Shown here: positions 30,223-63,722 of the stretch, piece by piece
How the letters are laid out: the number at the start of each line of letters is the position of its first letter
Numbering within the stretch: position 1 is the first letter of the stretch
Assembly: GCF_058153355.1 (NCBI RefSeq)
Contig: NZ_CM177019.1
Reading direction: 5' to 3' (one strand)
Length of the DNA: 64,000 nucleotides
Made by a program: the position numbers and the translations under genes
Notes under the pieces: model-generated
What the model was told of the DNA's origin: nothing
What the model saw: only the letters and a program-made list of their open reading frames with translations
Database searches by the model: none

Positions 30223-31239
30223 TCATTTTATTATCTTTAAATAAAAATAATAAATATAATTCATTATCCCGTTAATTGGTTTATTTTGTTTAAAATTATG
30301 CTTAGCGCAATAACGAGCATAATTTGAGTTAATTGGCCGCATTAACGGTTCATTTTTCCATGGCGATGCTTCTTTGGCTTTGATAAATGGCTGCGCGCTT
30401 GGATAACCGGCCCAGTAATGCCAGGGTTTTGTCGGGCCGACATAATGAATTAATACGGTTTCATCATTAATTGGACAAATAAATGATTTTTTTAATTCAT
30501 AATTTAAACTAAATTGCGTATTGTATTTAGCATCAATGAATTTAACTTTCCCTAACAGGATAAGATTTAGTATATCTTGATCCATATAGGTTAAACGGGA
30601 AACTACGGCTTTATCAGCAAGCATCGACATCGCTTTAGCAGAAACGGACTCCTGCGCCCACGCAAGTGTATTAATTAACAGGACACCTGAATTAAAGTAA
30701 CCCTTTTCAAGTTCATTACACTGCAGACTTTGAGCCCGTAACGACCACCAGTTAGCATCGCGTTCAGTAACAACAGCAGCAACGTTATTGGCAAGATCCA
30801 TTGTTATCAGCGGTTTTAAGGTTCCCTGACAGGCGATATCAGCATCCAGGTACAGGATCTTATCTTGTTGATCAATAAAGTAATCTGCAATTACAAAACG
30901 GAAATACATGGCAATAGACCAATTTTTGGTCGTCGGTAATACCTTAAGCCGTTCACAATTTACCAGATGGATCTGGATACAGGTATGATAGCTTTTCGCC
31001 AATTGGGATAAACGCTGGATATCGGCGTCAGGGATATCATCAATAAAAACGTGGAAGACAAAACTCACGTCGTTGTTATGTAACAAAACTGACGTGATTG
31101 AAACACCACAACCAAAAAGAAAGTTCTGATCAATGCCATAAGCAACATGGAATGATGATGCCACTGACGCCTCTGGCCTTTCATCGAAGATGATTGTCTT
31201 ATTGATCATCTCTTGTGGATTAAAATAGTGGGCACTCAT
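30223..31239 (-). CDS. waaO: Family-8 glycosyltransferase of LPS outer core (WaaO/WaaI-like)
   Basis: 338 aa; GT8 motifs (HVAYGIDQNF…LYLDADI…HYVGPTKPW). Confidence 0.65.
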   Translation of the reverse strand: MSAHYFNPQEMINKTIIFDERPEASVASSFHVAYGIDQNFLFGCGVSITSVLLHNNDVSFVFHVFIDDIPDADIQRLSQLAKSYHTCIQIHLVNCERLKVLPTTKNWSIAMYFRFVIADYFIDQQDKILYLDADIACQGTLKPLITMDLANNVAAVVTERDANWWSLRAQSLQCNELEKGYFNSGVLLINTLAWAQESVSAKAMSMLADKAVVSRLTYMDQDILNLILLGKVKFIDAKYNTQFSLNYELKKSFICPINDETVLIHYVGPTKPWHYWAGYPSAQPFIKAKEASPWKNEPLMRPINSNYARYCAKHNFKQNKPINGIMNYIYYFYLKIIK

Positions 31240-33169: not shown

Positions 33170-34224
33170 AACGACGTACCTGTCGTGGAGGATGGCAATA
33201 ATTTATCAACAGCAGCAATGACATCTGCCGCCGGAATAACCGAAAGATACATCTCATTTCGGTCACGCTGATCGCGTGTTGGCATTTCCCGGTAATCTCC
33301 CGCCCAGAATTGAATCATGTTATTTGACCAGGGACGCCAGAAAATATGGTCTGTTGCACCAAACAGCGATATCAGCGGCGTATTAACTGCAGCGGCAATG
33401 TGCGCCGGTGCGGAATCAACGCCAATAAACAGCTGCGCATGATCGATTAACGCACCAAGTTCCGGGAAGGTTACCTTTCCGGCCAACGCCGTTACTGGTG
33501 GCGTCTGGCATCCCTGGGCAATTTCATTGACGCAGGCCAGATCGTCTTTATCCGGGCCGGACGTCAGAACGACTTCATAGCCACGTGTATGTAAGGCATC
33601 AATCACAGCGGAAAACTTAGCGTTGTCCCAGCATTTGAAGATTTGCCGCGCGGTAGGTTGGATAACCACATAATTTTGTCCAACACCTGCGTGATCCAGT
33701 TCGCGACGCATTCGTTTCCAGCTTGCAGGCGGGTAACTCATTGTTGTCTGCTTCACCAACGATTCGAGACCCAGTGGCGTCAGCACGGATAAGTTACTTT
33801 CCACCACATTTCCACCCTGCAACGGCACCAGATGGGTGAAGCTTTTACGCCAAAAAGCAGACTGCCGATGATGATAATCCTGGGAAATTTTCACACGGGC
33901 ATTTAATAAGCGAACCAGTATAGCAACCATCCATTGATCGGTAAGATTGACGATAAGGTCATACTTATTGGCACGTAATACCTTGATGAGATGAAAAAAG
34001 TTGGAAATTTTCTCTGAGGCTTTTGCTTTTTTATTTTTTATGCCGTAGAGCGCGTTAATCTCTGGATTTTCAGACAGAATCGGGATGGTATCCTGATAAA
34101 GCAGCACATCGATTTTTGCGTCAGGGTAATTTTTTTTCAGCGAACTAATGACGGGAGTAGTTAATAACATATCCCCATGAAAACGCATCTTAATGAGCAA
34201 AATTCTTCGAAATGGCTTATCCAC
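33166..34224 (-). CDS. waaQ: LPS heptosyltransferase III (GT9)
   Basis: 352 aa; first gene of the minus-strand core operon; GT9 fold. Confidence 0.85.
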   Translation of the reverse strand: MDKPFRRILLIKMRFHGDMLLTTPVISSLKKNYPDAKIDVLLYQDTIPILSENPEINALYGIKNKKAKASEKISNFFHLIKVLRANKYDLIVNLTDQWMVAILVRLLNARVKISQDYHHRQSAFWRKSFTHLVPLQGGNVVESNLSVLTPLGLESLVKQTTMSYPPASWKRMRRELDHAGVGQNYVVIQPTARQIFKCWDNAKFSAVIDALHTRGYEVVLTSGPDKDDLACVNEIAQGCQTPPVTALAGKVTFPELGALIDHAQLFIGVDSAPAHIAAAVNTPLISLFGATDHIFWRPWSNNMIQFWAGDYREMPTRDQRDRNEMYLSVIPAADVIAAVDKLLPSSTTGTSL

Positions 34225-34273: not shown

Positions 34274-34285
34274 CACGCTACCGCC
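34274..34285 (-). promoter_or_regulatory. ops element (RfaH-dependent antitermination site) in waaQ operon leader
   Basis: Plus strand reads cacgctaccgcc, i.e. GGCGGTAGCGTG on the waaQ transcript strand, ~50 nt upstream of the waaQ start. Confidence 0.75.
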
Positions 34286-34636
34286 CCAGGCTCAACAGCT
34301 ACCTGAATACTGATACCGTACTGATATTGACGCGCTAGTGTATCACTTCTTTCGCGGCAATCCGATCCGAATGATTTTTAAGCACATCGTTGTTTTTCAA
34401 TAAAGAAATCAATCAAATAAAATCATTAGCAACAATATTCTTTCACTGTTGCTCCGCGATTCCTTACTGCACGTACTGCGGAAATCAATGAATCGTATAA
34501 AAATACAAAAAAAGTATAGATGTTCAGCAAGAATTGGCGGGTAAATTGCTATTTAAGTCAAAAACGGGAAAAGTAATGGTAAAGCCACAGCTAAATACAT
34601 AGAATCCCCAGCACATCCATAAGTCAGCTATTTACT

Positions 34637-36401
<1,765 letters not shown>

Positions 36402-40484: not shown

Positions 40485-40590
40485 CACATACGCATCCGAA
40501 TAACGTCATAACATAGCCGCAAACATTTCGTTTGCGGTCATAGCGTGGGTGCCGCCTGGCAAGTGCTTATTTTCAGGGGTATTTTGTAAC

Positions 40591-41187
40591 ATGGCAGAAA
40601 AACAAACTGCGAAAAGGAACCGTCGCGAGGAAATACTTCAGTCTCTGGCGCTGATGCTGGAATCCAGCGATGGAAGCCAACGTATCACGACGGCAAAACT
40701 GGCCGCCTCTGTCGGCGTTTCCGAAGCGGCACTGTATCGCCACTTCCCCAGTAAGACCCGCATGTTCGATAGCCTGATTGAGTTTATCGAAGATAGCCTG
40801 ATTACTCGCATCAATCTGATTCTGAAAGATGAGAAAGACACCACAGCGCGCCTGCGTCTGATTGTGTTGCTGCTTCTCGGTTTTGGTGAGCGTAATCCTG
40901 GCCTGACCCGCATCCTCACTGGTCATGCACTAATGTTTGAACAGGATCGCCTGCAAGGGCGCATCAACCAGCTATTCGAGCGTATTGAAGCGCAGTTGCG
41001 TCAGGTATTGCGTGAAAAGAGAATGCGTGAGGGTGAAGGTTACACCACCGACGAAACCCTGCTGGCAAGCCAGATCCTGGCCTTCTGTGAAGGTATGCTG
41101 TCACGTTTTGTCCGCAGCGAATTTAAATACCGCCCGACGGATGATTTTGACGCCCGCTGGCCGCTAATTGCTGCACAGTTGCAGTAA
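40591..41187 (+). CDS. slmA: Nucleoid occlusion factor SlmA (TetR family)
   Basis: ORF track 40549..41187; start trimmed to [17 protein letters not shown]. Confidence 0.88.
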
Positions 41188-42773: not shown

Positions 42774-43637
42774 ATGATCCGCAGTATGACCGCCTACGCC
42801 CGGCGTGAAATCAAGGGTGAATGGGGGAGCGCAACCTGGGAAATGCGCTCGGTAAACCAGCGTTATCTGGAAACTTACTTTCGTCTGCCGGAGCAGTTCC
42901 GTAGCCTTGAACCTGTCGTTCGCGAGCGTATTCGTTCTCGCCTGACGCGCGGTAAAGTGGAATGTACCCTGCGTTATGAGCCAGATGTTAGCGCACAAGG
43001 TGAGCTGATCCTCAACGAAAAACTGGCTAAACAGCTGGTAACTGCCGCGAACTGGGTAAAAATGCAGAGTGACGAAGGGGAAATCAACCCGGTTGATATT
43101 CTCCGCTGGCCGGGCGTAATGGCAGCCCAGGAGCAGGATCTCGACGCGATTGCTGCTGAAATTCTCGCGGCGCTGGATGGTACGCTGGATGACTTTATCG
43201 TCGCGCGCGAAACCGAAGGTCAGGCGCTGAAAGCATTGATCGAGCAGCGTCTGGAAGGCGTTACCGCCGAAGTGGTCAAAGTCCGCGCCCATATGCCGGA
43301 AATCCTGCAATGGCAGCGTGAGCGTCTGGTCGCTAAGCTGGAAGATGCTCAGGTTCAGTTGGAGAACAACCGTCTGGAGCAGGAGTTGGTTCTGCTGGCA
43401 CAACGAATTGACGTTGCCGAAGAGTTGGACCGCCTCGAAGCGCATGTTAAAGAGACCTACAACATTCTGAAGAAAAAAGAAGCCGTTGGTCGTCGTCTGG
43501 ACTTTATGATGCAGGAGTTCAACCGCGAGTCAAACACCCTGGCCTCGAAGTCTATCAATGCCGAAGTGACAAACTCTGCCATCGAGCTGAAAGTGTTGAT
43601 CGAGCAGATGCGCGAGCAGATTCAGAACATTGAATAA
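42774..43637 (+). CDS. yicC: YicC-family stress-induced protein
   Basis: 287 aa; MIRSMTAYARREIKGEWGSATWE. Confidence 0.88.
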   Translation: MIRSMTAYARREIKGEWGSATWEMRSVNQRYLETYFRLPEQFRSLEPVVRERIRSRLTRGKVECTLRYEPDVSAQGELILNEKLAKQLVTAANWVKMQSDEGEINPVDILRWPGVMAAQEQDLDAIAAEILAALDGTLDDFIVARETEGQALKALIEQRLEGVTAEVVKVRAHMPEILQWQRERLVAKLEDAQVQLENNRLEQELVLLAQRIDVAEELDRLEAHVKETYNILKKKEAVGRRLDFMMQEFNRESNTLASKSINAEVTNSAIELKVLIEQMREQIQNIE

Positions 43638-43672
43638 CTTGTAACGCCAATTCTTACTTTTCAGCCTTCACA

Positions 43673-43706
43673 AATGCCGCCCACTCAAACAGAGCGGCAT
43701 TTTTCT
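43673..43706 (+). terminator. Rho-independent terminator downstream of yicC
   Basis: aatgccgc…gcggcatt stem followed by ttttctt. Confidence 0.45.
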
Positions 43707-43796
43707 TCCCCGCAACTTCAATTCTGTTTTGCGTGCCTGCTCCAGATTTTGCGATGTTTTTTTGCCCAGCACACTGAGAACGTGAGATACTCACAA

Positions 43797-43812
43797 CTGT
43801 ATATAAATACAG
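43797..43812. promoter_or_regulatory. LexA box (SOS operator) upstream of dinD
   Basis: CTGTATATAAATACAG matches the CTGT-N8-ACAG consensus, ~45 bp upstream of the dinD start. Confidence 0.8.
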
Positions 43813-43857
43813 TTACAGATTTACTTTCTTTGCAATCGATATCACATGGAGTGGGCA

Positions 43858-44682
43858 ATGAACGAACATCATCAACCTTTTGAAGAAATACGGCATTATG
43901 GCACTGAAGGGCAAGAATTTTGGTCAGCGAGAGAATTGGCACCGTTACTGGATTATCGGGACTGGCGCAATTTTCAAAAGGTACTGGCCCGCGCGACTCA
44001 AGCGTGCGAAGCCAGCAATCAAGCTGCATCTGACCATTTCGTTGAAACCACCAAAATGGTTGTATTAGGTTCAGGGGCTCAACGAGAACTTGAAGATGTT
44101 CATCTCTCCCGCTATGCCTGTTACCTGGTAGTACAAAACGGCGACCCTGCGAAACCGGTTATTGCGGCAGGGCAAACTTATTTTGCTATCCAGACCCGAC
44201 GGCAGGAGCTGGCTGACGATGAAGCTTTCAGGCAACTTCGTGAAGACGAAAAGCGTCTTTTTCTGAGAAATGAGTTGAAAGAACATAACAAACAATTAGT
44301 TGAGGCAGCGCAGCAAGCTGGGGTAGCGACAGCTATCGATTTCGCCATATTTCAGAATCATGGTTACCGGGGACTGTATGGTGGATTAGATCAGAAAGCC
44401 ATCCATCAGCGGAAGGGGCTGAAAAAGAGTCAGAAGATCCTGGATCATATGGGTTCAACAGAACTGGCGGCTAATCTCTTTCGAGCTACCCAAACAGAAG
44501 AAAAACTCAAGCGGGATGGCGTGAATTCAAAACAGCAAGCTAACACCACACACTTTGACGTGGGTCGCAAGGTGAGGCAAACCATTCAGGAACTTGGCGG
44601 AACCATGCCTGAGGAGTTGCCGACCCCGCAGGTTAGCATCAAGCAGTTGGAAAACAGTGTAAAAATTACAGAGAAAAAATAG
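43858..44682 (+). CDS. dinD: DNA-damage-inducible protein D
   Basis: ORF track 43846..44682; start trimmed to MNEHHQPFEEIRHYGTEGQEFWSAREL. Confidence 0.85.
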   Translation: MNEHHQPFEEIRHYGTEGQEFWSARELAPLLDYRDWRNFQKVLARATQACEASNQAASDHFVETTKMVVLGSGAQRELEDVHLSRYACYLVVQNGDPAKPVIAAGQTYFAIQTRRQELADDEAFRQLREDEKRLFLRNELKEHNKQLVEAAQQAGVATAIDFAIFQNHGYRGLYGGLDQKAIHQRKGLKKSQKILDHMGSTELAANLFRATQTEEKLKRDGVNSKQQANTTHFDVGRKVRQTIQELGGTMPEELPTPQVSIKQLENSVKITEKK

Positions 44683-44972
44683 CAGAAACTAAAAACTCTT
44701 TTTGTTGATTGAGACACCCGATGCGTAAGCCAAGGTCCAGGTGCAGTGAACACAATGGCTAACATTGCACCTTTCTTTTCCACCCCTCAGTTTTAACCTA
44801 CTTTTTCTTATGCATTTTCTCAGACAAGAAGTCAGAAGAATGCATCTACGCTACAGAAAACAACGATTTCACATAACTAAAAATTATCAATTCCCTCTCA
44901 CCTTAAAAAATCTCAATCGTGACAATGCGCACAAATCGCTACCCTGCCAGACAGATTTTTAGGGAGAGAACC

Positions 44973-58326: not shown

Positions 58327-59007
58327 TTAGCGCAAAATTCCATACTCACTGCACAATAACCATTTCACCGGTTCATCTTCTTCTATCGCCGGAAAACGTC
58401 CTCCCGGCTCAAGAAAATAATTATCGTGTTGGTCATCATTTACCATCGAAATTTCCCAGCCGAGAACAAACGCTTTTTCCGCCCAGAAGCGATGATACAG
58501 ACGCGGCGGCAGGCAAATGCCCTGCCCCGGCTTTAGCACCAGCGTTTCACCAGGTTTCATGGTACGCCGCTGACCATCAACACTCACGGTAATGACTCGT
58601 TGATCATCACAGAGATTGGCTTCGTTGGCCCAGGCCAACTGCATGCATAAGTCTCCACCGCCCCGATTGAGGATATCTTCCATTTTGTGGGTGTGAAAAT
58701 GCCAGGGAGTCTGCTGATCTTGTTGGATCTGCAACATTTTCTCAGCATACGGTTTTGGATATGCCGCCGACCCCAGCGCGCCGTTGCGCATCGTTAGCAG
58801 TGTTAGTCCCGTTTGGTTGAAATCACCACGACCAAAATCGGTGATATCCCAACCGAGCTGTAAGTCGACTACTTCTTGCCAGTTATCCCGTTCCCGCTGC
58901 AGCCAGTCATCCACCGTAAAATAGGCGAACTCTGGCAAACAAACGCGGAAGGTCTGCGCAATGGCATGTGCTTTATCAATAACATAATTAATTTGTGAGC
59001 GTTTCAT
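58327..59007 (-). CDS. Cupin-superfamily sugar isomerase-like protein (D-lyxose/mannose isomerase-like)
   Basis: ORF track 58327..59046; likely start at MKRSQINYVIDKA (59007); the alternative is the upstream Met at 59046. Confidence 0.65.
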   Translation of the reverse strand: MKRSQINYVIDKAHAIAQTFRVCLPEFAYFTVDDWLQRERDNWQEVVDLQLGWDITDFGRGDFNQTGLTLLTMRNGALGSAAYPKPYAEKMLQIQQDQQTPWHFHTHKMEDILNRGGGDLCMQLAWANEANLCDDQRVITVSVDGQRRTMKPGETLVLKPGQGICLPPRLYHRFWAEKAFVLGWEISMVNDDQHDNYFLEPGGRFPAIEEDEPVKWLLCSEYGILR

Positions 59008-59076
59008 TGGCTTCTCCGTTGCGCATAGCAAGCCAGGCAGCGCCACGCATTCCGCTACTGTCGCCGTGCTGCGCTT

Positions 59077-59919
59077 TTACAATGGGAGTGGTGAATTGAT
59101 CGGTGAAAACCAGTGGAGCGACTTCTGCGTTAGATCGGTGATAAGCAGTTCCACATTCGAAAGCCCGCCGCCGATCACAATCACGCCAGGGTCAACAACG
59201 TTAACGATGGTTGCCAGCGTGCGGGCAAGCTGTTGGCGAAAACGTGCCACCTGCTGCATGGCACAAGCATCACCACGTTGTGCCAGGGTGACAATCGCCG
59301 CAGGAGTGAGCAAGTTACCAGTCATCTGTTGATAGCGTTCACTAAAACCGCTGCCGGAAACAAACGACTCCACGCAGTTGTGTTTGCCGCAATAGCAACT
59401 GACTGATGGACCATCTTCCTGCTCCGTATAGCCTGGCAACGTGATATGACCGCATTCGGCAGCATTTCCCCAGGCCCCTATAAACGGTCGTTGCTTGATG
59501 GCAATGCCACCGCCGCAGCCCGTGCCAAGCGTAATACCAAATACCACGTCATAATCTTGCCCGGCACCGTCGCAAGCTTCTGATAGCGCGAAACAGTTAC
59601 CATCATTGGCTATCACCACCGGTTGCCCAAGCAATTGCTGCAAATCAGCCTGTAACGCATGACCGTTAATCACCTGAATATTCGCATTTTTAATCAGGCC
59701 AGTGAGTGGCGAGATACTGCCGGGTAAGGCGATCCCTGTCAGCATCGGTCGTTGAACGTCCCGCCTAATCTGCTCGATAAGCGCCACAACGCATGAGACA
59801 AATTGTTGATATGTCGACTTTTGCGTCGGGCAGCGGTAACGGCGAATCTCCCAGCCATGCGCATCCATGACGACGGCGGCGATTTTGGTCCCACCAATAT
59901 CCAACCCCAGATAGTGCAT
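59077..59919 (-). CDS. ROK-family sugar kinase
   Basis: ORF track 59077..59952; start trimmed to MHYLGLDIGGTKIAAV (ROK ATP-binding motif); C-terminal CxCGxxxC zinc motif (CYCGKHNCVE). Confidence 0.8.
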   Translation of the reverse strand: MHYLGLDIGGTKIAAVVMDAHGWEIRRYRCPTQKSTYQQFVSCVVALIEQIRRDVQRPMLTGIALPGSISPLTGLIKNANIQVINGHALQADLQQLLGQPVVIANDGNCFALSEACDGAGQDYDVVFGITLGTGCGGGIAIKQRPFIGAWGNAAECGHITLPGYTEQEDGPSVSCYCGKHNCVESFVSGSGFSERYQQMTGNLLTPAAIVTLAQRGDACAMQQVARFRQQLARTLATIVNVVDPGVIVIGGGLSNVELLITDLTQKSLHWFSPINSPLPL

Positions 59920-59966
59920 ATCTCGTTCCTTGTTGCGTAAAAGGCGGGTCACCCCGCCCTTCTGGG

Positions 59967-60827
59967 TTAGTACAGTGATGCTTTACCGAGCGAACCGAAC
60001 AGTTTCATTTTGTGGCGAATGACTTCCCGCGCCGCGTTAATCGCATCCGGATAGATGACGTTCGGGTCCCACCAGCTCTCTTTAGCGAGAATTTCACGCA
60101 CTTTCTGGAAATAGGCGTATTTCATATCGCTGGAGATATTGATTTTGCCGACGCCGAGCGTAACTGATTCAGCAATCTCCGCGTCCGGGTTTGCCGAACC
60201 ACCGTGTAGCACCAGCGGAATATCAATACGTCCGGCAATGTCGCGCAAAATGTCCATTTGCAGCTTCGGTTGCATCCCTTTTGGATAGATGCCATGCGCT
60301 GTACCAATCGCCACAGCCAGTGTGTCGGCACCTGTACGAGCAATAAAATCGGCGGCCTGCGCCGGATCTGTGTAGGTCACTTGTGAAACACCACCTTCTA
60401 CCGACGTTCCTGTTTGTCCGATGGTTCCCAGTTCACCCTCAACCGACACGCCAACCGCGTGAGCGAGGCGAACCACTTCTGCGGTCAGCGCCACGTTTTC
60501 TTCATACGGCAGCAGCGAACCGTCGATCATTACTGAGGTAAATCCGCAGCGAATCGCACGCAAAACATGCTCTACAGAGGCACCATGATCGAGGTGCAGT
60601 ACAAACGGGACCGGACTACGCTGGGTAATTTCGCGAATGTGAGCGAAAAAAGCATCGCCCACAAAATCATGTTCGCTGGGATGGATGGCAATAATCGCCG
60701 GAGTATTTGTCGCTTCTGCTTCATCCACGACTGCGCGAAGGAAACAGTTATCCGCCACATTAAATGCGCCAATGGCAAAGCCGTGCTGGCGGGTAGGTTG
60801 CAGTAATTCTTTCATCGAAACTAACAT
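59967..60827 (-). CDS. Class II ketose-bisphosphate aldolase (tagatose/fructose-bisphosphate aldolase family, GatY/KbaY-like)
   Basis: 286 aa; zinc-ligand motifs LHLDHG, GTAHG, LVLHGGS. Confidence 0.85.
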   Translation of the reverse strand: MLVSMKELLQPTRQHGFAIGAFNVADNCFLRAVVDEAEATNTPAIIAIHPSEHDFVGDAFFAHIREITQRSPVPFVLHLDHGASVEHVLRAIRCGFTSVMIDGSLLPYEENVALTAEVVRLAHAVGVSVEGELGTIGQTGTSVEGGVSQVTYTDPAQAADFIARTGADTLAVAIGTAHGIYPKGMQPKLQMDILRDIAGRIDIPLVLHGGSANPDAEIAESVTLGVGKINISSDMKYAYFQKVREILAKESWWDPNVIYPDAINAAREVIRHKMKLFGSLGKASLY

Positions 60828-60907
60828 GTTAAATCTCCAGTTTCAGCGTGTAGTCCGCCCTGCCGGTGCGTTATTGCACTGGCATAAAGGCCATGACAGA
60901 AAATGAA

Positions 60908-61759
60908 TCAGGCTTTGCCGATAGAGCCGCTCGCCTGTAAATACGGTGTAATCGCTTCTTCGAAGGCCAGTTCCATAGCTTTCAGCGCGTCCACCAGTTC
61001 AATGGATATATCGTGACAGAGGGTATGCAGGAGCGCGGATTTCCCCCGTTCAAAAATGGCCGCCCCCACGTTGATTTTTGCTACCCCCAGCGTCGTACAG
61101 AGCTGGAGCTGATCGAACGGCGTACCGCTACCGCCATGTAATGCCAGAGGCACGCTCGAGCAGTGGAAAATCTCCGCCAGACGCTGAAAATCAATAGCAG
61201 GTACAACACCAGGCGCGTACATGCCGTGCGCCGTGCCTACCGAGACGGCCAGTAGATCAATGCCTGTCTGCGCGATAAACGGTTCCACATCAGTGGGTTG
61301 CGTCATCAGGTCTGCATTGGCGGCCTGGTCGTAACGCGGCGCATCTGCCAGATGGCCCAGTTCGCCTTCCACGCAGAGCTGCGCGCTGGCGGCGAGTTCC
61401 ACCACCGCCCTGGTCTGGCGCACGTTTTCCTCCAGGGGAAAAGCAGAAGCATCAATCATTAATCCGCTGAAACCAGCACGAAACGCCTGACGAATACAGT
61501 CCGGATTTTTGCCATGATCAAGCGCCAGAGCGACCGGTACTGAGGCAGATTCCGCGAGCGTTTTAACCACTGCCGCCGCGACGGGTGCAGGAAAATGCGC
61601 CAGATGCCCCTGATAGAGATTGAGAATGATCGGCGCGCGATTCTTCTCCGCCACGCGGATAGCTGCGTGAGCACTTTCCAGATTCATACAGTTGATCGCC
61701 AGCAAGGCGTAATGTTCATGCCAGGCTTTCATCACCATACTTTTCATATCGGCAAACAT
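60908..61759 (-). CDS. Second class II ketose-bisphosphate aldolase paralog
   Basis: 283 aa; ALDHG, GTAHG, LALHGGSG motifs retained; start may be an internal Met. Confidence 0.8.
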   Translation of the reverse strand: MFADMKSMVMKAWHEHYALLAINCMNLESAHAAIRVAEKNRAPIILNLYQGHLAHFPAPVAAAVVKTLAESASVPVALALDHGKNPDCIRQAFRAGFSGLMIDASAFPLEENVRQTRAVVELAASAQLCVEGELGHLADAPRYDQAANADLMTQPTDVEPFIAQTGIDLLAVSVGTAHGMYAPGVVPAIDFQRLAEIFHCSSVPLALHGGSGTPFDQLQLCTTLGVAKINVGAAIFERGKSALLHTLCHDISIELVDALKAMELAFEEAITPYLQASGSIGKA

Positions 61760-61770
61760 AGGGCCTCCGG

Positions 61771-62862
61771 TTATTCGAGGGTGAAAGTGATCTCTTCATC
61801 TTTCAGCTTTTGATCGCTCAGTTCGTCAAACTCTTCGTCGCGTTCCGTTACCGGTTTCTTCCAGAGTGAAAGCATCACGCCACAAATCACCGTGCCTATA
61901 CCCAGCGCCAGGCAAAACAGCAGAGGATGGGTGAAAAGAGGCACAACAAACAGGCCGCCATGCGGAACCGGACTCTCCACGCCCCACACCATGATCAAGC
62001 CGCCCGCGACCGCCGAGGCCACCACACAAGATCCCACTACTCGCAGCAAGTCACGCGCGGCGATCGGAATGACTCCTTCAGTGATCATGCAGATCCCCAT
62101 CGGAAACGCGGCTTTCAGCGCCTCGCGCTCCGCACGGGTGTATTTATGGCGTGTCAGTAAGAACGAAAGTGTGATGCCAAACGGAGGGATGATTGAGCCG
62201 ACAAATTTCACGGCTTCTGGCCCGTAGACGCCGCTGACCAGCAAGCCATCGGAAAACAACGACATTGTTTTATTTACCGGACCACCGAAATCGAAGGTTG
62301 CCATCGCGCCAAGTATGGCCCCCATCAGGAAGCGCGATCCGCCCTGCATCGACTCGAGCAAATGAATCAGTGCTTCTTGTAACCAGGCGATGGGTTTACC
62401 AATCAGCGTCATCATTAACAGCCCACCGATAATGGTGCTTAATACCGGCAACACCATGATTGGCATGAGTCCTTGCATCGACTGCGGCAGGCGGATATAG
62501 CGTTTAAGTAGCAAAATGGTGTAGCCCACCAGGAAACCACCCAACATACCGCCAATAAATCCGGTATGGATTTGCCCGCAGAGAAAGCCGACAATCAGGC
62601 CCGGGGCAAATCCGGGACGATCGGCAATAGAATAGGCAATTGCCGCGCTAATCAGCGGCACAATCAGCCCCATTCCCCAGCCGCCAATCTGATTAAGCAT
62701 CCACGGGATTGTTCCTGTTTTTTCACCAACATCTGTACCACCAAGAACTTGCCCCAACGCAATACATATCCCGGCGGCCACAATAAGGGGTATCATCCAC
62801 GAGATGCCGGTTAATAAATGTTTTTTAATTTCCTGTGAAACCGGAATTTTATTGTCTTTCAT
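61771..62862 (-). CDS. PTS fructose-family EIIC component
   Basis: 363 aa polytopic membrane protein; FrwC/FrvB-like. Confidence 0.85.
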   Translation of the reverse strand: MKDNKIPVSQEIKKHLLTGISWMIPLIVAAGICIALGQVLGGTDVGEKTGTIPWMLNQIGGWGMGLIVPLISAAIAYSIADRPGFAPGLIVGFLCGQIHTGFIGGMLGGFLVGYTILLLKRYIRLPQSMQGLMPIMVLPVLSTIIGGLLMMTLIGKPIAWLQEALIHLLESMQGGSRFLMGAILGAMATFDFGGPVNKTMSLFSDGLLVSGVYGPEAVKFVGSIIPPFGITLSFLLTRHKYTRAEREALKAAFPMGICMITEGVIPIAARDLLRVVGSCVVASAVAGGLIMVWGVESPVPHGGLFVVPLFTHPLLFCLALGIGTVICGVMLSLWKKPVTERDEEFDELSDQKLKDEEITFTLE

Positions 62863-62886
62863 ATTAAGATCCCTCCAGTATAAGGA

Positions 62887-63201
62887 TCATTTGTTTCCCA
62901 GTGATTTTTCGACCTTTTCAAGAAATTGAACGGGCGATTTAATGACGATCTCTGTCTTTACTCGCACAATACGTTTATTGGTGAAGCGTTCTTCTCCTTT
63001 TATTTTCACATCTACAGCAAGAATCACGACGTCAGCAGCAGAGATATCTGCCGCCTGTAATTCATTTTCTGTACCAATGGTTCCCTGGGTTTCAACTTTA
63101 ATGGTATGGCCCAGAGCTTTTGCTCCTTTGATTAACTTTTCACGAGCAATATAGGTATGAGCAATACCCGCCGTACAGGCGGCAACACAGACAATATTCA
63201 T
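62887..63201 (-). CDS. PTS fructose-family EIIB component
   Basis: 104 aa; N-terminal phospho-cysteine motif (VCVAACTAGIAHTY). Confidence 0.85.
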   Translation of the reverse strand: MNIVCVAACTAGIAHTYIAREKLIKGAKALGHTIKVETQGTIGTENELQAADISAADVVILAVDVKIKGEERFTNKRIVRVKTEIVIKSPVQFLEKVEKSLGNK

Positions 63202-63218
63202 GACATACTCTCTGTTAT

Positions 63219-63689
63219 TTAGCAGACATCGGATTGTGCATACTGACTAAAGAGATCAATGATTTTTTGCGGACTCGTCTCAACTAACAATTGTTCTATG
63301 ATGTCATCATCCGCCAGCGCGCCCGCGACCTGGGAAAGTAAACGGATATGGGTGGTATTTTGATCTTCAAGACGTACCGCAAATAAAATAATACAGCGCA
63401 CGCTACTGCCATCCAGCGTTTCCCAGGGAATATCCTGCCGGGTACGGCCAATTGCCAGCGTAGTATTAATCACAGCTGAAGATTTACCATGCGGGATCGC
63501 AATATGATTTTCAAAACCAGTCGAGCCTTCCGCTTCGCGCTGCCAGACATCTTTAATAAAGGTTTCCCGACAATCGATCGCACCATCTTTTTTGAGAAGA
63601 TTAGTTAATTCTTCAATCGCCTCCGCTTTATTCGTCGCTTGCATATCTAAAATAACGCGATTCGTATTCAGGATTTTTGTTATGTCCAT
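63219..63689 (-). CDS. PTS fructose/mannitol-family EIIA component
   Basis: 156 aa; IAIPHGK phospho-histidine motif. Confidence 0.85.
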   Translation of the reverse strand: MDITKILNTNRVILDMQATNKAEAIEELTNLLKKDGAIDCRETFIKDVWQREAEGSTGFENHIAIPHGKSSAVINTTLAIGRTRQDIPWETLDGSSVRCIILFAVRLEDQNTTHIRLLSQVAGALADDDIIEQLLVETSPQKIIDLFSQYAQSDVC

Positions 63690-63722
63690 TCGTCATACCT
63701 CATAAAATTCTGACATTAAATT

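What the first reader, a model, noticed from the sequence alone, without database searches (positions are those of the whole stretch)
43797..43812. Canonical LexA operator upstream of dinD
CTGTATATAAATACAG fits CTGT-(AT)4-ACAG and overlaps the probable dinD promoter, consistent with SOS control.
Basis: partly seen in the sequence, partly recalled or inferred. Interest (0 to 1): 0.3.

Follow-up and report, generated by a model that had tools for sequence, protein, structure and literature searches.

The report
Known LexA operator of dinD

Summary
CTGTATATAAATACAG lies exactly at 43797-43812, inside the 20-mer AACTGTATATAAATACAGTT (43795-43814), 43 nt upstream of the dinD start codon (43858).

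The window is an E. coli chromosome (pyrE-rph-yicC-dinD-yicG-ligB). The box and the 125 bp upstream of it are identical to K-12 MG1655.

A LexA matrix built from 17 other K-12 SOS boxes scores the site at 25.4 bits; the next best site in 64 kb scores 12.8. My own heterology-type index is 2.95, fifth best of 18 known boxes.

Published work lists this exact sequence upstream of dinD. It shows LexA-dependent UV induction (PMC3009722), ciprofloxacin induction (PMC11002266) and routine use of dinD1::lacZ as an SOS reporter (PMC2504298).

The verdict is: already known, low interest. The one soft point is the promoter. The best sigma-70 candidate (TTGCCC-18-GATACT) places the box across +1, but it scores no better than chance and I found no TSS data.

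Side observations:
- 217 E. coli genomes carry an ISL3-family element inside the box.
- About 13% of genomes lack dinD and the box altogether.
- dinD homologues elsewhere mostly sit inside type I restriction-modification operons without an SOS box, so LexA control looks lineage-restricted.

The parts
43795..43814 (.). LexA operator (SOS box) AACTGTATATAAATACAGTT; the core CTGT-N8-ACAG lies at 43797-43812
   Evidence: Sequence read. Held-out PWM score 25.4 bits. Heterology-type index 2.95. Identical to K-12. The exact sequence is listed upstream of dinD in PMC3009722 Tables 4 and 7.
43762..43767 (+). Candidate -35 hexamer TTGCCC (inference only)
   Evidence: Part of the best sigma-70-like pair in 43700-43860 (6.7 bits). 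This is not above chance: the null median is 5.7 and the 90th percentile is 8.2. The hexamer is invariant in six intact E. coli alleles. The tool's own promoter scan reported nothing on the + strand.
43786..43791 (+). Candidate -10 hexamer GATACT, 18-bp spacer (inference only). It predicts a start near 43798, inside the box.
   Evidence: No experimental TSS could be retrieved.
43672..43709 (+). Terminator-like hairpin (AAAUGCCGC...GCGGCAUUU) with a T-run after yicC. It separates dinD from upstream transcription.
   Evidence: RNA fold of -12.4 kcal/mol, z = -2.2.
43848..43851 (+). Shine-Dalgarno GGAG, 6 nt before the annotated ATG
   Evidence: Read directly from the sequence. It supports the start at 43858 rather than the upstream in-frame ATG at 43846.
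43858..44682 (+). dinD coding sequence (274 aa, N-terminal Bro-N domain)
   Evidence: NCBIfam NF008573 equivalog, 505 bits. Pfam Bro-N over residues 10-105. RefSeq annotation in near-identical genomes.

Best explanation
The palindrome is the single high-affinity LexA operator of the dinD (pcsA) gene.

In undamaged cells a LexA dimer binds the two CTGT/ACAG half-sites, which lie in the dinD promoter region between the yicC terminator and the dinD ribosome-binding site, and blocks transcription initiation. After DNA damage, RecA filaments on single-stranded DNA stimulate LexA self-cleavage. The operator is vacated and dinD is transcribed.

Shown here or in the cited papers: the sequence and its score, its identity to the K-12 site, and the LexA- and damage-dependence of dinD expression in K-12. 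Inferred: the exact promoter hexamers. It follows that I also infer, rather than show, whether LexA occludes the start site (box at about -4 to +16 relative to TTGCCC-18-GATACT) or the -10 element.
For: - Exact sequence and coordinates.
- It is the only near-consensus 20-mer in the window, with none in 100 shuffles.
- The held-out PWM gives 25.4 bits, within the 13-28 bit range of 17 known boxes, with the runner-up at 12.8 bits.
- The heterology-type index is 2.95, fifth best of 18 known boxes.
- The box and 125 bp upstream are identical to MG1655.
- The downstream gene is dinD.
- PMC3009722 lists ACAACTGTATATAAATACAGTTACA upstream of dinD and confirms by RT-qPCR, in lexA(Def) and lexA3(Ind-) strains, that UV induction of dinD depends on LexA.
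- PMC11002266 reports dinD mRNA at log2FC 4.5 and DinD protein at 5.3-5.8 after ciprofloxacin.
- PMC6590174 lists dinD among genes with a known SOS box.
- Within E. coli, the 58 bp around the box are 100% identical in 3430 genomes. The common variant (T to C next to the ACAG arm) keeps both arms, with an index of 3.3.
- Where dinD has decayed to a pseudogene (strain HH45), the box has decayed too, with an index of 15.5.
Against: - Nothing contradicts the operator assignment.
- The promoter geometry is unproven. The tool scan found no sigma-70-like site on the + strand, and my best candidate is no better than random 161-bp stretches of the window.
- LexA binding was not measured on this strain's DNA. 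The argument rests on sequence identity with K-12.
- Most dinD homologues in other species have no SOS box, so conservation across species does not support the site. That is evidence for lineage-specific regulation rather than against function in E. coli.
Confidence: 0.95

Rival explanations
1. Same operator, different geometry. The true -10 element lies inside the box (TATAAA at 43802-43807, or TATATA at 43800-43805), so LexA competes directly with sigma-70 for the -10 region instead of covering the start site downstream of GATACT.
For: The box contains TATAAA, a 5/6 match to TATAAT. In the two other homologues that carry SOS boxes, the best -10-like hexamers fall inside the box, by my reading: Citrobacter TTGTTG-17-TAAAAA and Paraburkholderia TTGCAC-16-TAAAAA. 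The TTGCCC/GATACT candidate is not above chance.
Against: No acceptable -35 lies 16-18 bp upstream of the in-box hexamers (AACGTG and its neighbours). These hexamers lack the conserved T at position 6, and the in-box pairs score 3.0 bits or less. TTGCCC and GATACT are both invariant across diverged E. coli alleles, while the spacer between them varies.
Confidence: 0.25
2. The palindrome is a chance AT-rich inverted repeat or a generic promoter element, and dinD induction is driven from elsewhere.
For: The core pattern CTGT-N8-ACAG alone occurs about as often as chance predicts in the window. Intergenic regions are AT-rich.
Against: The full 20-mer scores 12.6 bits above anything else in 64 kb, and none of 100 shuffles comes within 3 mismatches of the consensus. 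There is no other candidate box within the yicC-dinD gap. Published LexA dependence exists for the identical K-12 sequence.
Confidence: 0.02
3. The box is chiefly a structural feature of a mobile or imported cassette, for example a recombination or transposition target, and LexA binding is incidental.
For: dinD and the box form a roughly 1.1 kb presence/absence unit: about 13% of E. coli genomes have only a 251-bp yicC-yicG gap. An ISL3-family element has inserted into the AT-rich spacer, with target duplication ATATAAAT, in 217 genomes. The dinD family is spread widely by horizontal transfer.
Against: No terminal repeats or integrase flank the cassette. Insertion sequences preferring AT-rich palindromes explains the hit without giving the box a mobility role. 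The functional data show real LexA control. The box is absent from most transferred copies.
Confidence: 0.03

Closest known systems
E. coli K-12 dinD (pcsA) SOS box. From my own knowledge: Lewis et al. 1994 J Mol Biol and Fernandez de Henestrosa et al. 2000 Mol Microbiol. Tabulated in PMC3009722 and PMC6590174.
   Same: The 20-mer is identical, as are 125 bp upstream and 21 bp downstream. The locus (yicC-dinD-yicG) and the distance to the start codon are the same.
   Different: There are a few substitutions and indels in the distal intergenic region. The downstream dinD allele is a mosaic: nt 30-255 are only 56% identical to K-12, and the proteins are 84% identical.
Other high-affinity E. coli SOS boxes (sbmC, umuDC, recN, istR-2/tisB)
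   Same: CTGT-N8-ACAG arms, an AT-rich spacer, and a low heterology index. dinD ranks fifth of 18 in my calculation.
   Different: The outer flanks are AA...TT instead of TA...TA. It is a single box, not a tandem pair as at lexA or recN (the tandem arrangement is from my own knowledge).
LexA-controlled phage antirepressors (the Ant/Tum type, with Bro-N/KilA-N-like N-termini). This is a lead only.
   Same: DinD has a Bro-N domain and weak matches to PHROG 'anti-repressor Ant' families (E about 3e-4). It is placed under a LexA operator.
   Different: The strong family match is to the DinD equivalog, to PHROG 8036 (function unknown) and to PADLOC candidate PDC-S13. There is no prophage context in the window. 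The reported activity of DinD is inhibition of RecA filaments (Uranga et al. 2011 JBC, from my own knowledge).

Membership tests
E. coli-type LexA operator (SOS box) | 16-bp inverted repeat CTGT-N8-ACAG with an AT-rich spacer, close to TACTG(TA)5CAGTA | tested here: met
   both arms are perfect and there are 3 mismatches to the 20-mer consensus, two of them in the outermost flank positions.
E. coli-type LexA operator (SOS box) | Matrix score or heterology index within the range of proven boxes | tested here: met
   Held-out PWM score 25.4 bits, against a known range of 13-28. Heterology-type index 2.95, against a known range of 0.6-12.8 in my calculation.
E. coli-type LexA operator (SOS box) | Position in the promoter region of a gene, overlapping or adjacent to the -35, -10 or +1 elements | tested here: inconclusive
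   The site is intergenic, 43 nt before the start codon and downstream of a terminator-like hairpin. The promoter hexamers are only predicted and are not above chance.
E. coli-type LexA operator (SOS box) | Physical binding of LexA | not testable with these tools
   Binding is established in the literature for the identical K-12 sequence (Lewis et al. 1994, from my own knowledge). PMC6590174 lists dinD under 'known SOS box'.
E. coli-type LexA operator (SOS box) | LexA- and RecA-dependent induction of the downstream gene by DNA damage | not testable with these tools
   Published for K-12: RT-qPCR in lexA(Def) and lexA3 strains (PMC3009722), a ciprofloxacin time course (PMC11002266) and the dinD1::lacZ reporter (PMC2504298).
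E. coli-type LexA operator (SOS box) | Conservation upstream of orthologues | tested here: inconclusive
   The box is conserved within E. coli. It is absent upstream of 77 of 80 homologues from other species, including eight other Enterobacterales. It is present in Citrobacter werkmanii and Paraburkholderia madseniana in different contexts.
DinD (DNA damage-inducible protein D) family | Full-length match to the curated equivalog model above its cut-off | tested here: met
   NF008573 scores 504.7 bits against a cut-off of 242, covering residues 1-274.

The most novel reading that the evidence does not exclude
LexA control of dinD may be a lineage-restricted rewiring rather than an ancestral property of the family.

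The dinD family is very highly conserved (64-82% amino-acid identity across phyla). It is usually embedded in type I restriction-modification operons: 44 of 80 sampled species have hsdM beside it. It is catalogued only as an untested phage-defence candidate (PADLOC PDC-S13). In E. coli a stand-alone copy sits with its own SOS box on a roughly 1.1 kb presence/absence cassette.

If this reading holds, SOS-induced DinD could link DNA damage to restriction, defence or RecA modulation, for example by protecting repaired or unmodified DNA. The 217 natural insertion-sequence disruptions of the operator would then be ready-made regulatory mutants.
Probability: 0.2. Interest if true: 0.45.

Novelty: already known. 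Interest (0 to 1): 0.08.

Why it matters
The operator itself adds nothing new. It is one of the classic SOS boxes, and dinD fusions have been used as DNA-damage reporters since 1980.

The context is mildly more interesting. The operator-plus-gene unit is dispensable in about 13% of E. coli genomes and is split by an insertion sequence in another 4%. Homologues elsewhere lack the box and sit inside restriction-modification operons. That frames a testable question about what DinD does and why E. coli wired it to the SOS response.

Tried and rejected
**Transcription start site**
- I looked for an experimental TSS or promoter for dinD. The J Bacteriol papers by Ohmori 1995 and Lundegaard & Jensen 1994, and Thomason 2015, are not held.
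- The supplements of Mendoza-Vargas 2009 and Kim 2012 contain no dinD entry.
- The phrase 'dinD promoter' occurs in no held paper.

**Promoter prediction**
- The built-in promoter/terminator scan found no + strand promoter and no terminator near the box.
- My own sigma-70 scoring gave one best candidate that is not above chance, so I report the promoter as inference only.

**Phylogenetic footprinting**
- Footprinting across species did not support the box, because most homologues lack it. I read this as lineage-specific regulation, not as evidence against function.

**Sites considered and rejected**
- The second CTGT-N8-ACAG match at 33351 has a GC-rich spacer and an index of 17.7.
- The PWM runners-up at 30664, 32637 and 33138 score 10-13 bits and lie in the AT-rich waa gene cluster.

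**Other searches**
- A sequence search of the PDB with DinD found no solved relative.
- The Payne et al. 2024 preprint explains what PDC candidates are, but its main text names neither DinD nor PDC-S13.

Full report
**Observation**

Reading the window shows CTGTATATAAATACAG at exactly 43797-43812. The palindrome extends to AACTGTATATAAATACAGTT (43795-43814). The spacer ATATAAAT differs from (AT)4 at one base.

The bare pattern CTGT-N8-ACAG is not informative. It occurs twice in the window, with 0.82 expected, and 18 of 100 shuffles reach two. The second hit, at 33351, has a GC-rich spacer.

The full site is a clear outlier:
- It is the only 20-mer within three mismatches of TACTG(TA)5CAGTA, and none appears in 100 shuffles.
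- With a weight matrix built from the 17 other K-12 SOS boxes printed in PMC3009722 Table 4 (dinD left out), it scores 25.4 bits. The next best site in the window scores 12.8, and the known boxes range over 13-28 bits.
- A Berg-von Hippel-type heterology index that I computed from the same 18 boxes gives 2.95, fifth best of 18. The next best window site gives 11.45. This is my own calculation, not the published HI value.

**Context**

The window is an E. coli chromosome. A 1.1 kb query around the site matches 4714 of 5426 complete E. coli genomes, and RefSeq annotates yicC and dinD there. The gene order is pyrE-rph-yicC-dinD-yicG-ligB. rph is intact, so the strain is not K-12.

The ORF downstream of the box is DinD:
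- It has 274 aa from the ATG at 43858, which is preceded by GGAG at 43848-43851.
- It matches NCBIfam equivalog NF008573 at 505 bits, against a cut-off of 242.
- Pfam finds a Bro-N domain over residues 10-105.

Upstream, yicC ends at 43637. It is followed by a terminator-like hairpin and T-run at 43672-43709. dinD should therefore have its own promoter in the last 150 bp or so.

**Identity with the characterised site**

Alignment with MG1655 shows that the box, the 125 bp upstream and the 21 bp downstream are identical.

The published evidence for this sequence in K-12 is as follows:
- PMC3009722 lists ACAACTGTATATAAATACAGTTACA upstream of dinD. [quoted passage not shown]
- PMC6590174 lists dinD among genes with a known SOS box.
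- PMC11002266 reports induction by ciprofloxacin, with mRNA at log2FC 4.5 and protein at 5.3-5.8.

From my own knowledge, the site was defined as a high-affinity LexA site by Lewis et al. (1994). dinD was one of the original Kenyon and Walker (1980) din fusions.

**Mechanism**

A LexA dimer bound to the two half-sites represses dinD. RecA-stimulated LexA self-cleavage after DNA damage relieves the repression. This is established SOS biology.

The exact geometry is inferred:
- The best sigma-70-like pair in 43700-43860 is TTGCCC (43762-43767), an 18-bp spacer, and GATACT (43786-43791).
- That pair predicts a start near 43798 and places the box at about -4 to +16, which would mean occlusion of the start site.
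- Both hexamers are invariant in six intact E. coli alleles whose intervening spacer varies.
- However, the pair scores 6.7 bits, within what random 161-bp stretches of the window give (median 5.7, 90th percentile 8.2). The tool's own scan reported nothing on the + strand.
- The alternative is a -10 inside the box (TATAAA at 43802-43807). It has no usable -35.
- I could not retrieve any TSS data.

**Variation within E. coli**

- The 58 bp centred on the box are 100% identical in 3430 genomes.
- About 820 genomes, including ATCC 25922 and APEC O1:K1:H7, fall in the 80-90% identity band for those 58 bp. The two diverged alleles I aligned (RM14516, SCU-204) carry AACTGTATATAAACACAGTT, which keeps both arms (index 3.3).
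- In 217 genomes an ISL3-family (ISKox3-like) element sits inside the spacer, flanked by an 8-bp duplication ATATAAAT. It splits the operator into two dead halves, with indices of 17-18.
- About 13% of genomes have no dinD and no box. yicC and yicG are then 251 bp apart, so the operator and gene behave as a roughly 1.1 kb presence/absence unit.
- In strain HH45 a diverged dinD pseudogene retains only CTGTAGAAAATTAATG (index 15.5). Gene and operator have decayed together.

**Beyond E. coli**

DinD is very highly conserved and patchily distributed. It shows 64-82% identity in Chlorobi, Chlamydiae, Firmicutes, Spirochaetes, Epsilonproteobacteria and a Methanolobus genome bin.

I scanned the 250 bp upstream of 80 homologues with the held-out matrix. 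Only Citrobacter werkmanii and Paraburkholderia madseniana have a gamma/beta-type SOS box:
- Citrobacter werkmanii: CACTGTAAAAATATCCAGTA, 23.1 bits. The gene lies after what I take from memory to be ibpB, and carries an in-frame stop.
- Paraburkholderia madseniana: ACCTGTATAAAAACACAGTA, 20.3 bits.

Eight other Enterobacterales score below 10 bits anywhere within about 3 kb.

Clustering the neighbouring ORFs shows HsdM next to dinD in 44 of 80 loci and HsdS in 42, with HsdR and RhuM recurring. This embedding has been noted anecdotally (PMC9881135, PMC4996451). The family also matches PADLOC's untested 'phage defence candidate' PDC-S13 and an HsdS-fusion model. Such candidates were derived by guilt-by-embedding in R-M and BREX systems (bioRxiv 10.1101/2024.01.29.577857).

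LexA control therefore looks like a lineage-restricted feature of stand-alone copies. This does not weaken the E. coli assignment.

**Verdict**

The feature is already known, and the finding itself is of low interest. The population and family context is recorded as side observations.

Noticed in passing
L003 4160-5500 (NZ_CP086500.1); corresponds to window 43801-43808: An ISL3-family (ISKox3-like) insertion sequence sits inside the AT-rich spacer of the SOS box, with an 8-bp target duplication ATATAAAT. It splits the operator into two non-functional halves. The identical junction is present in 217 of 5426 complete E. coli genomes.
   Followed up: partly
L086 838-1090 (NZ_CP015159.1, strain Eco889); corresponds to window about 43638-44770: About 13% of complete E. 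coli genomes (712-720 of 5426) lack dinD, its operator and the whole yicC-dinD spacer. yicC and yicG are then separated by only 251 bp. dinD and the box therefore behave as a roughly 1.1 kb presence/absence cassette.
   Followed up: partly
L087 and L088 (RM14516, SCU-204); corresponds to window 43808: A variant operator AACTGTATATAAACACAGTT (T to C next to the right arm) occurs in the two diverged alleles I aligned. About 820 genomes, including ATCC 25922 and APEC O1:K1:H7, show the same degree of divergence over the 58 bp around the box and probably share it. Both arms are kept and the heterology-type index is 3.3.
   Followed up: partly
L004 3140-4015 (NZ_CP116411.1, strain HH45): A strongly diverged dinD pseudogene (frameshift and internal stop) at the same locus has a decayed box, CTGTAGAAAATTAATG. 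The operator and the gene appear to have degraded together.
   Followed up: partly
window 43887-44112 (dinD nt 30-255, residues about 11-85, Bro-N domain): There is a sharp allelic mosaic. This segment is only 56% identical in DNA to K-12 dinD, whereas the rest of the gene is 97% identical and the promoter region is essentially identical. The proteins are 84% identical overall. Both allele classes are common in E. coli, which suggests recombinational replacement of part of the Bro-N domain.
   Followed up: partly
L005-L084 (80 species-level genomes): DinD homologues are 64-82% identical across very distant phyla, including a Methanolobus bin. In 44 of 80 loci they lie beside hsdM, and in 42 beside hsdS, within type I R-M operons, often with RhuM. 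The family matches PADLOC candidate PDC-S13 and an HsdS-DinD fusion model.
   Followed up: partly
L017 2944-2963 and L043 2886-2905: Only two of 80 non-E. coli homologues carry an SOS box upstream: Citrobacter werkmanii (apparently next to ibpB, with dinD interrupted by an in-frame stop) and Paraburkholderia madseniana. Serratia, Pectobacterium, Yersinia, Providencia, Photorhabdus, Morganella, Enterobacter and Pseudocitrobacter copies have none. The name 'DNA damage-inducible' may therefore not apply to them.
   Followed up: partly
window 44634-44649: The 16-nt stretch at the 3' end of dinD reported to be complementary to tisAB RNA in K-12 (PMC2577331) carries one mismatch in this strain: TAGCATCAAGCAGTTG instead of CAGCATCAAGCAGTTG.
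   Followed up: no
window 34274-34312 (- strand): Rfam JUMPstart element (RF01707, 55 bits), the only Rfam match in the window at gathering threshold. It lies between waaA (34637-35914) and the start of the waaQ (rfaQ) LPS-core operon, where it is expected.
   Followed up: no
window 58327-63700: An accessory sugar-utilisation cluster lies downstream of yicH: PTS fructose-type IIC/IIB/IIA, a ROK protein, two aldolases and a D-lyxose/D-mannose isomerase. It is present in 1605 of 5426 E. coli genomes, including LF82 and NRG 857C. It resembles the ExPEC 'frz' operon (name from memory). No tRNA genes were found in the window.
   Followed up: partly
L001 1-326 (NZ_ABACVG020000001.1): In strain 2020CK-00188, the closest dinD match, a reverse-transcriptase-family pseudogene lies next to pyrE. 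The window has slmA there instead (40549-41187).
   Followed up: no
window 33351-33366: The second CTGT-N8-ACAG match (CTGTTGCACCAAACAG) lies inside the waa region. It has a GC-rich spacer and a heterology-type index of 17.7, so it is a chance match and not an SOS box.
   Followed up: yes
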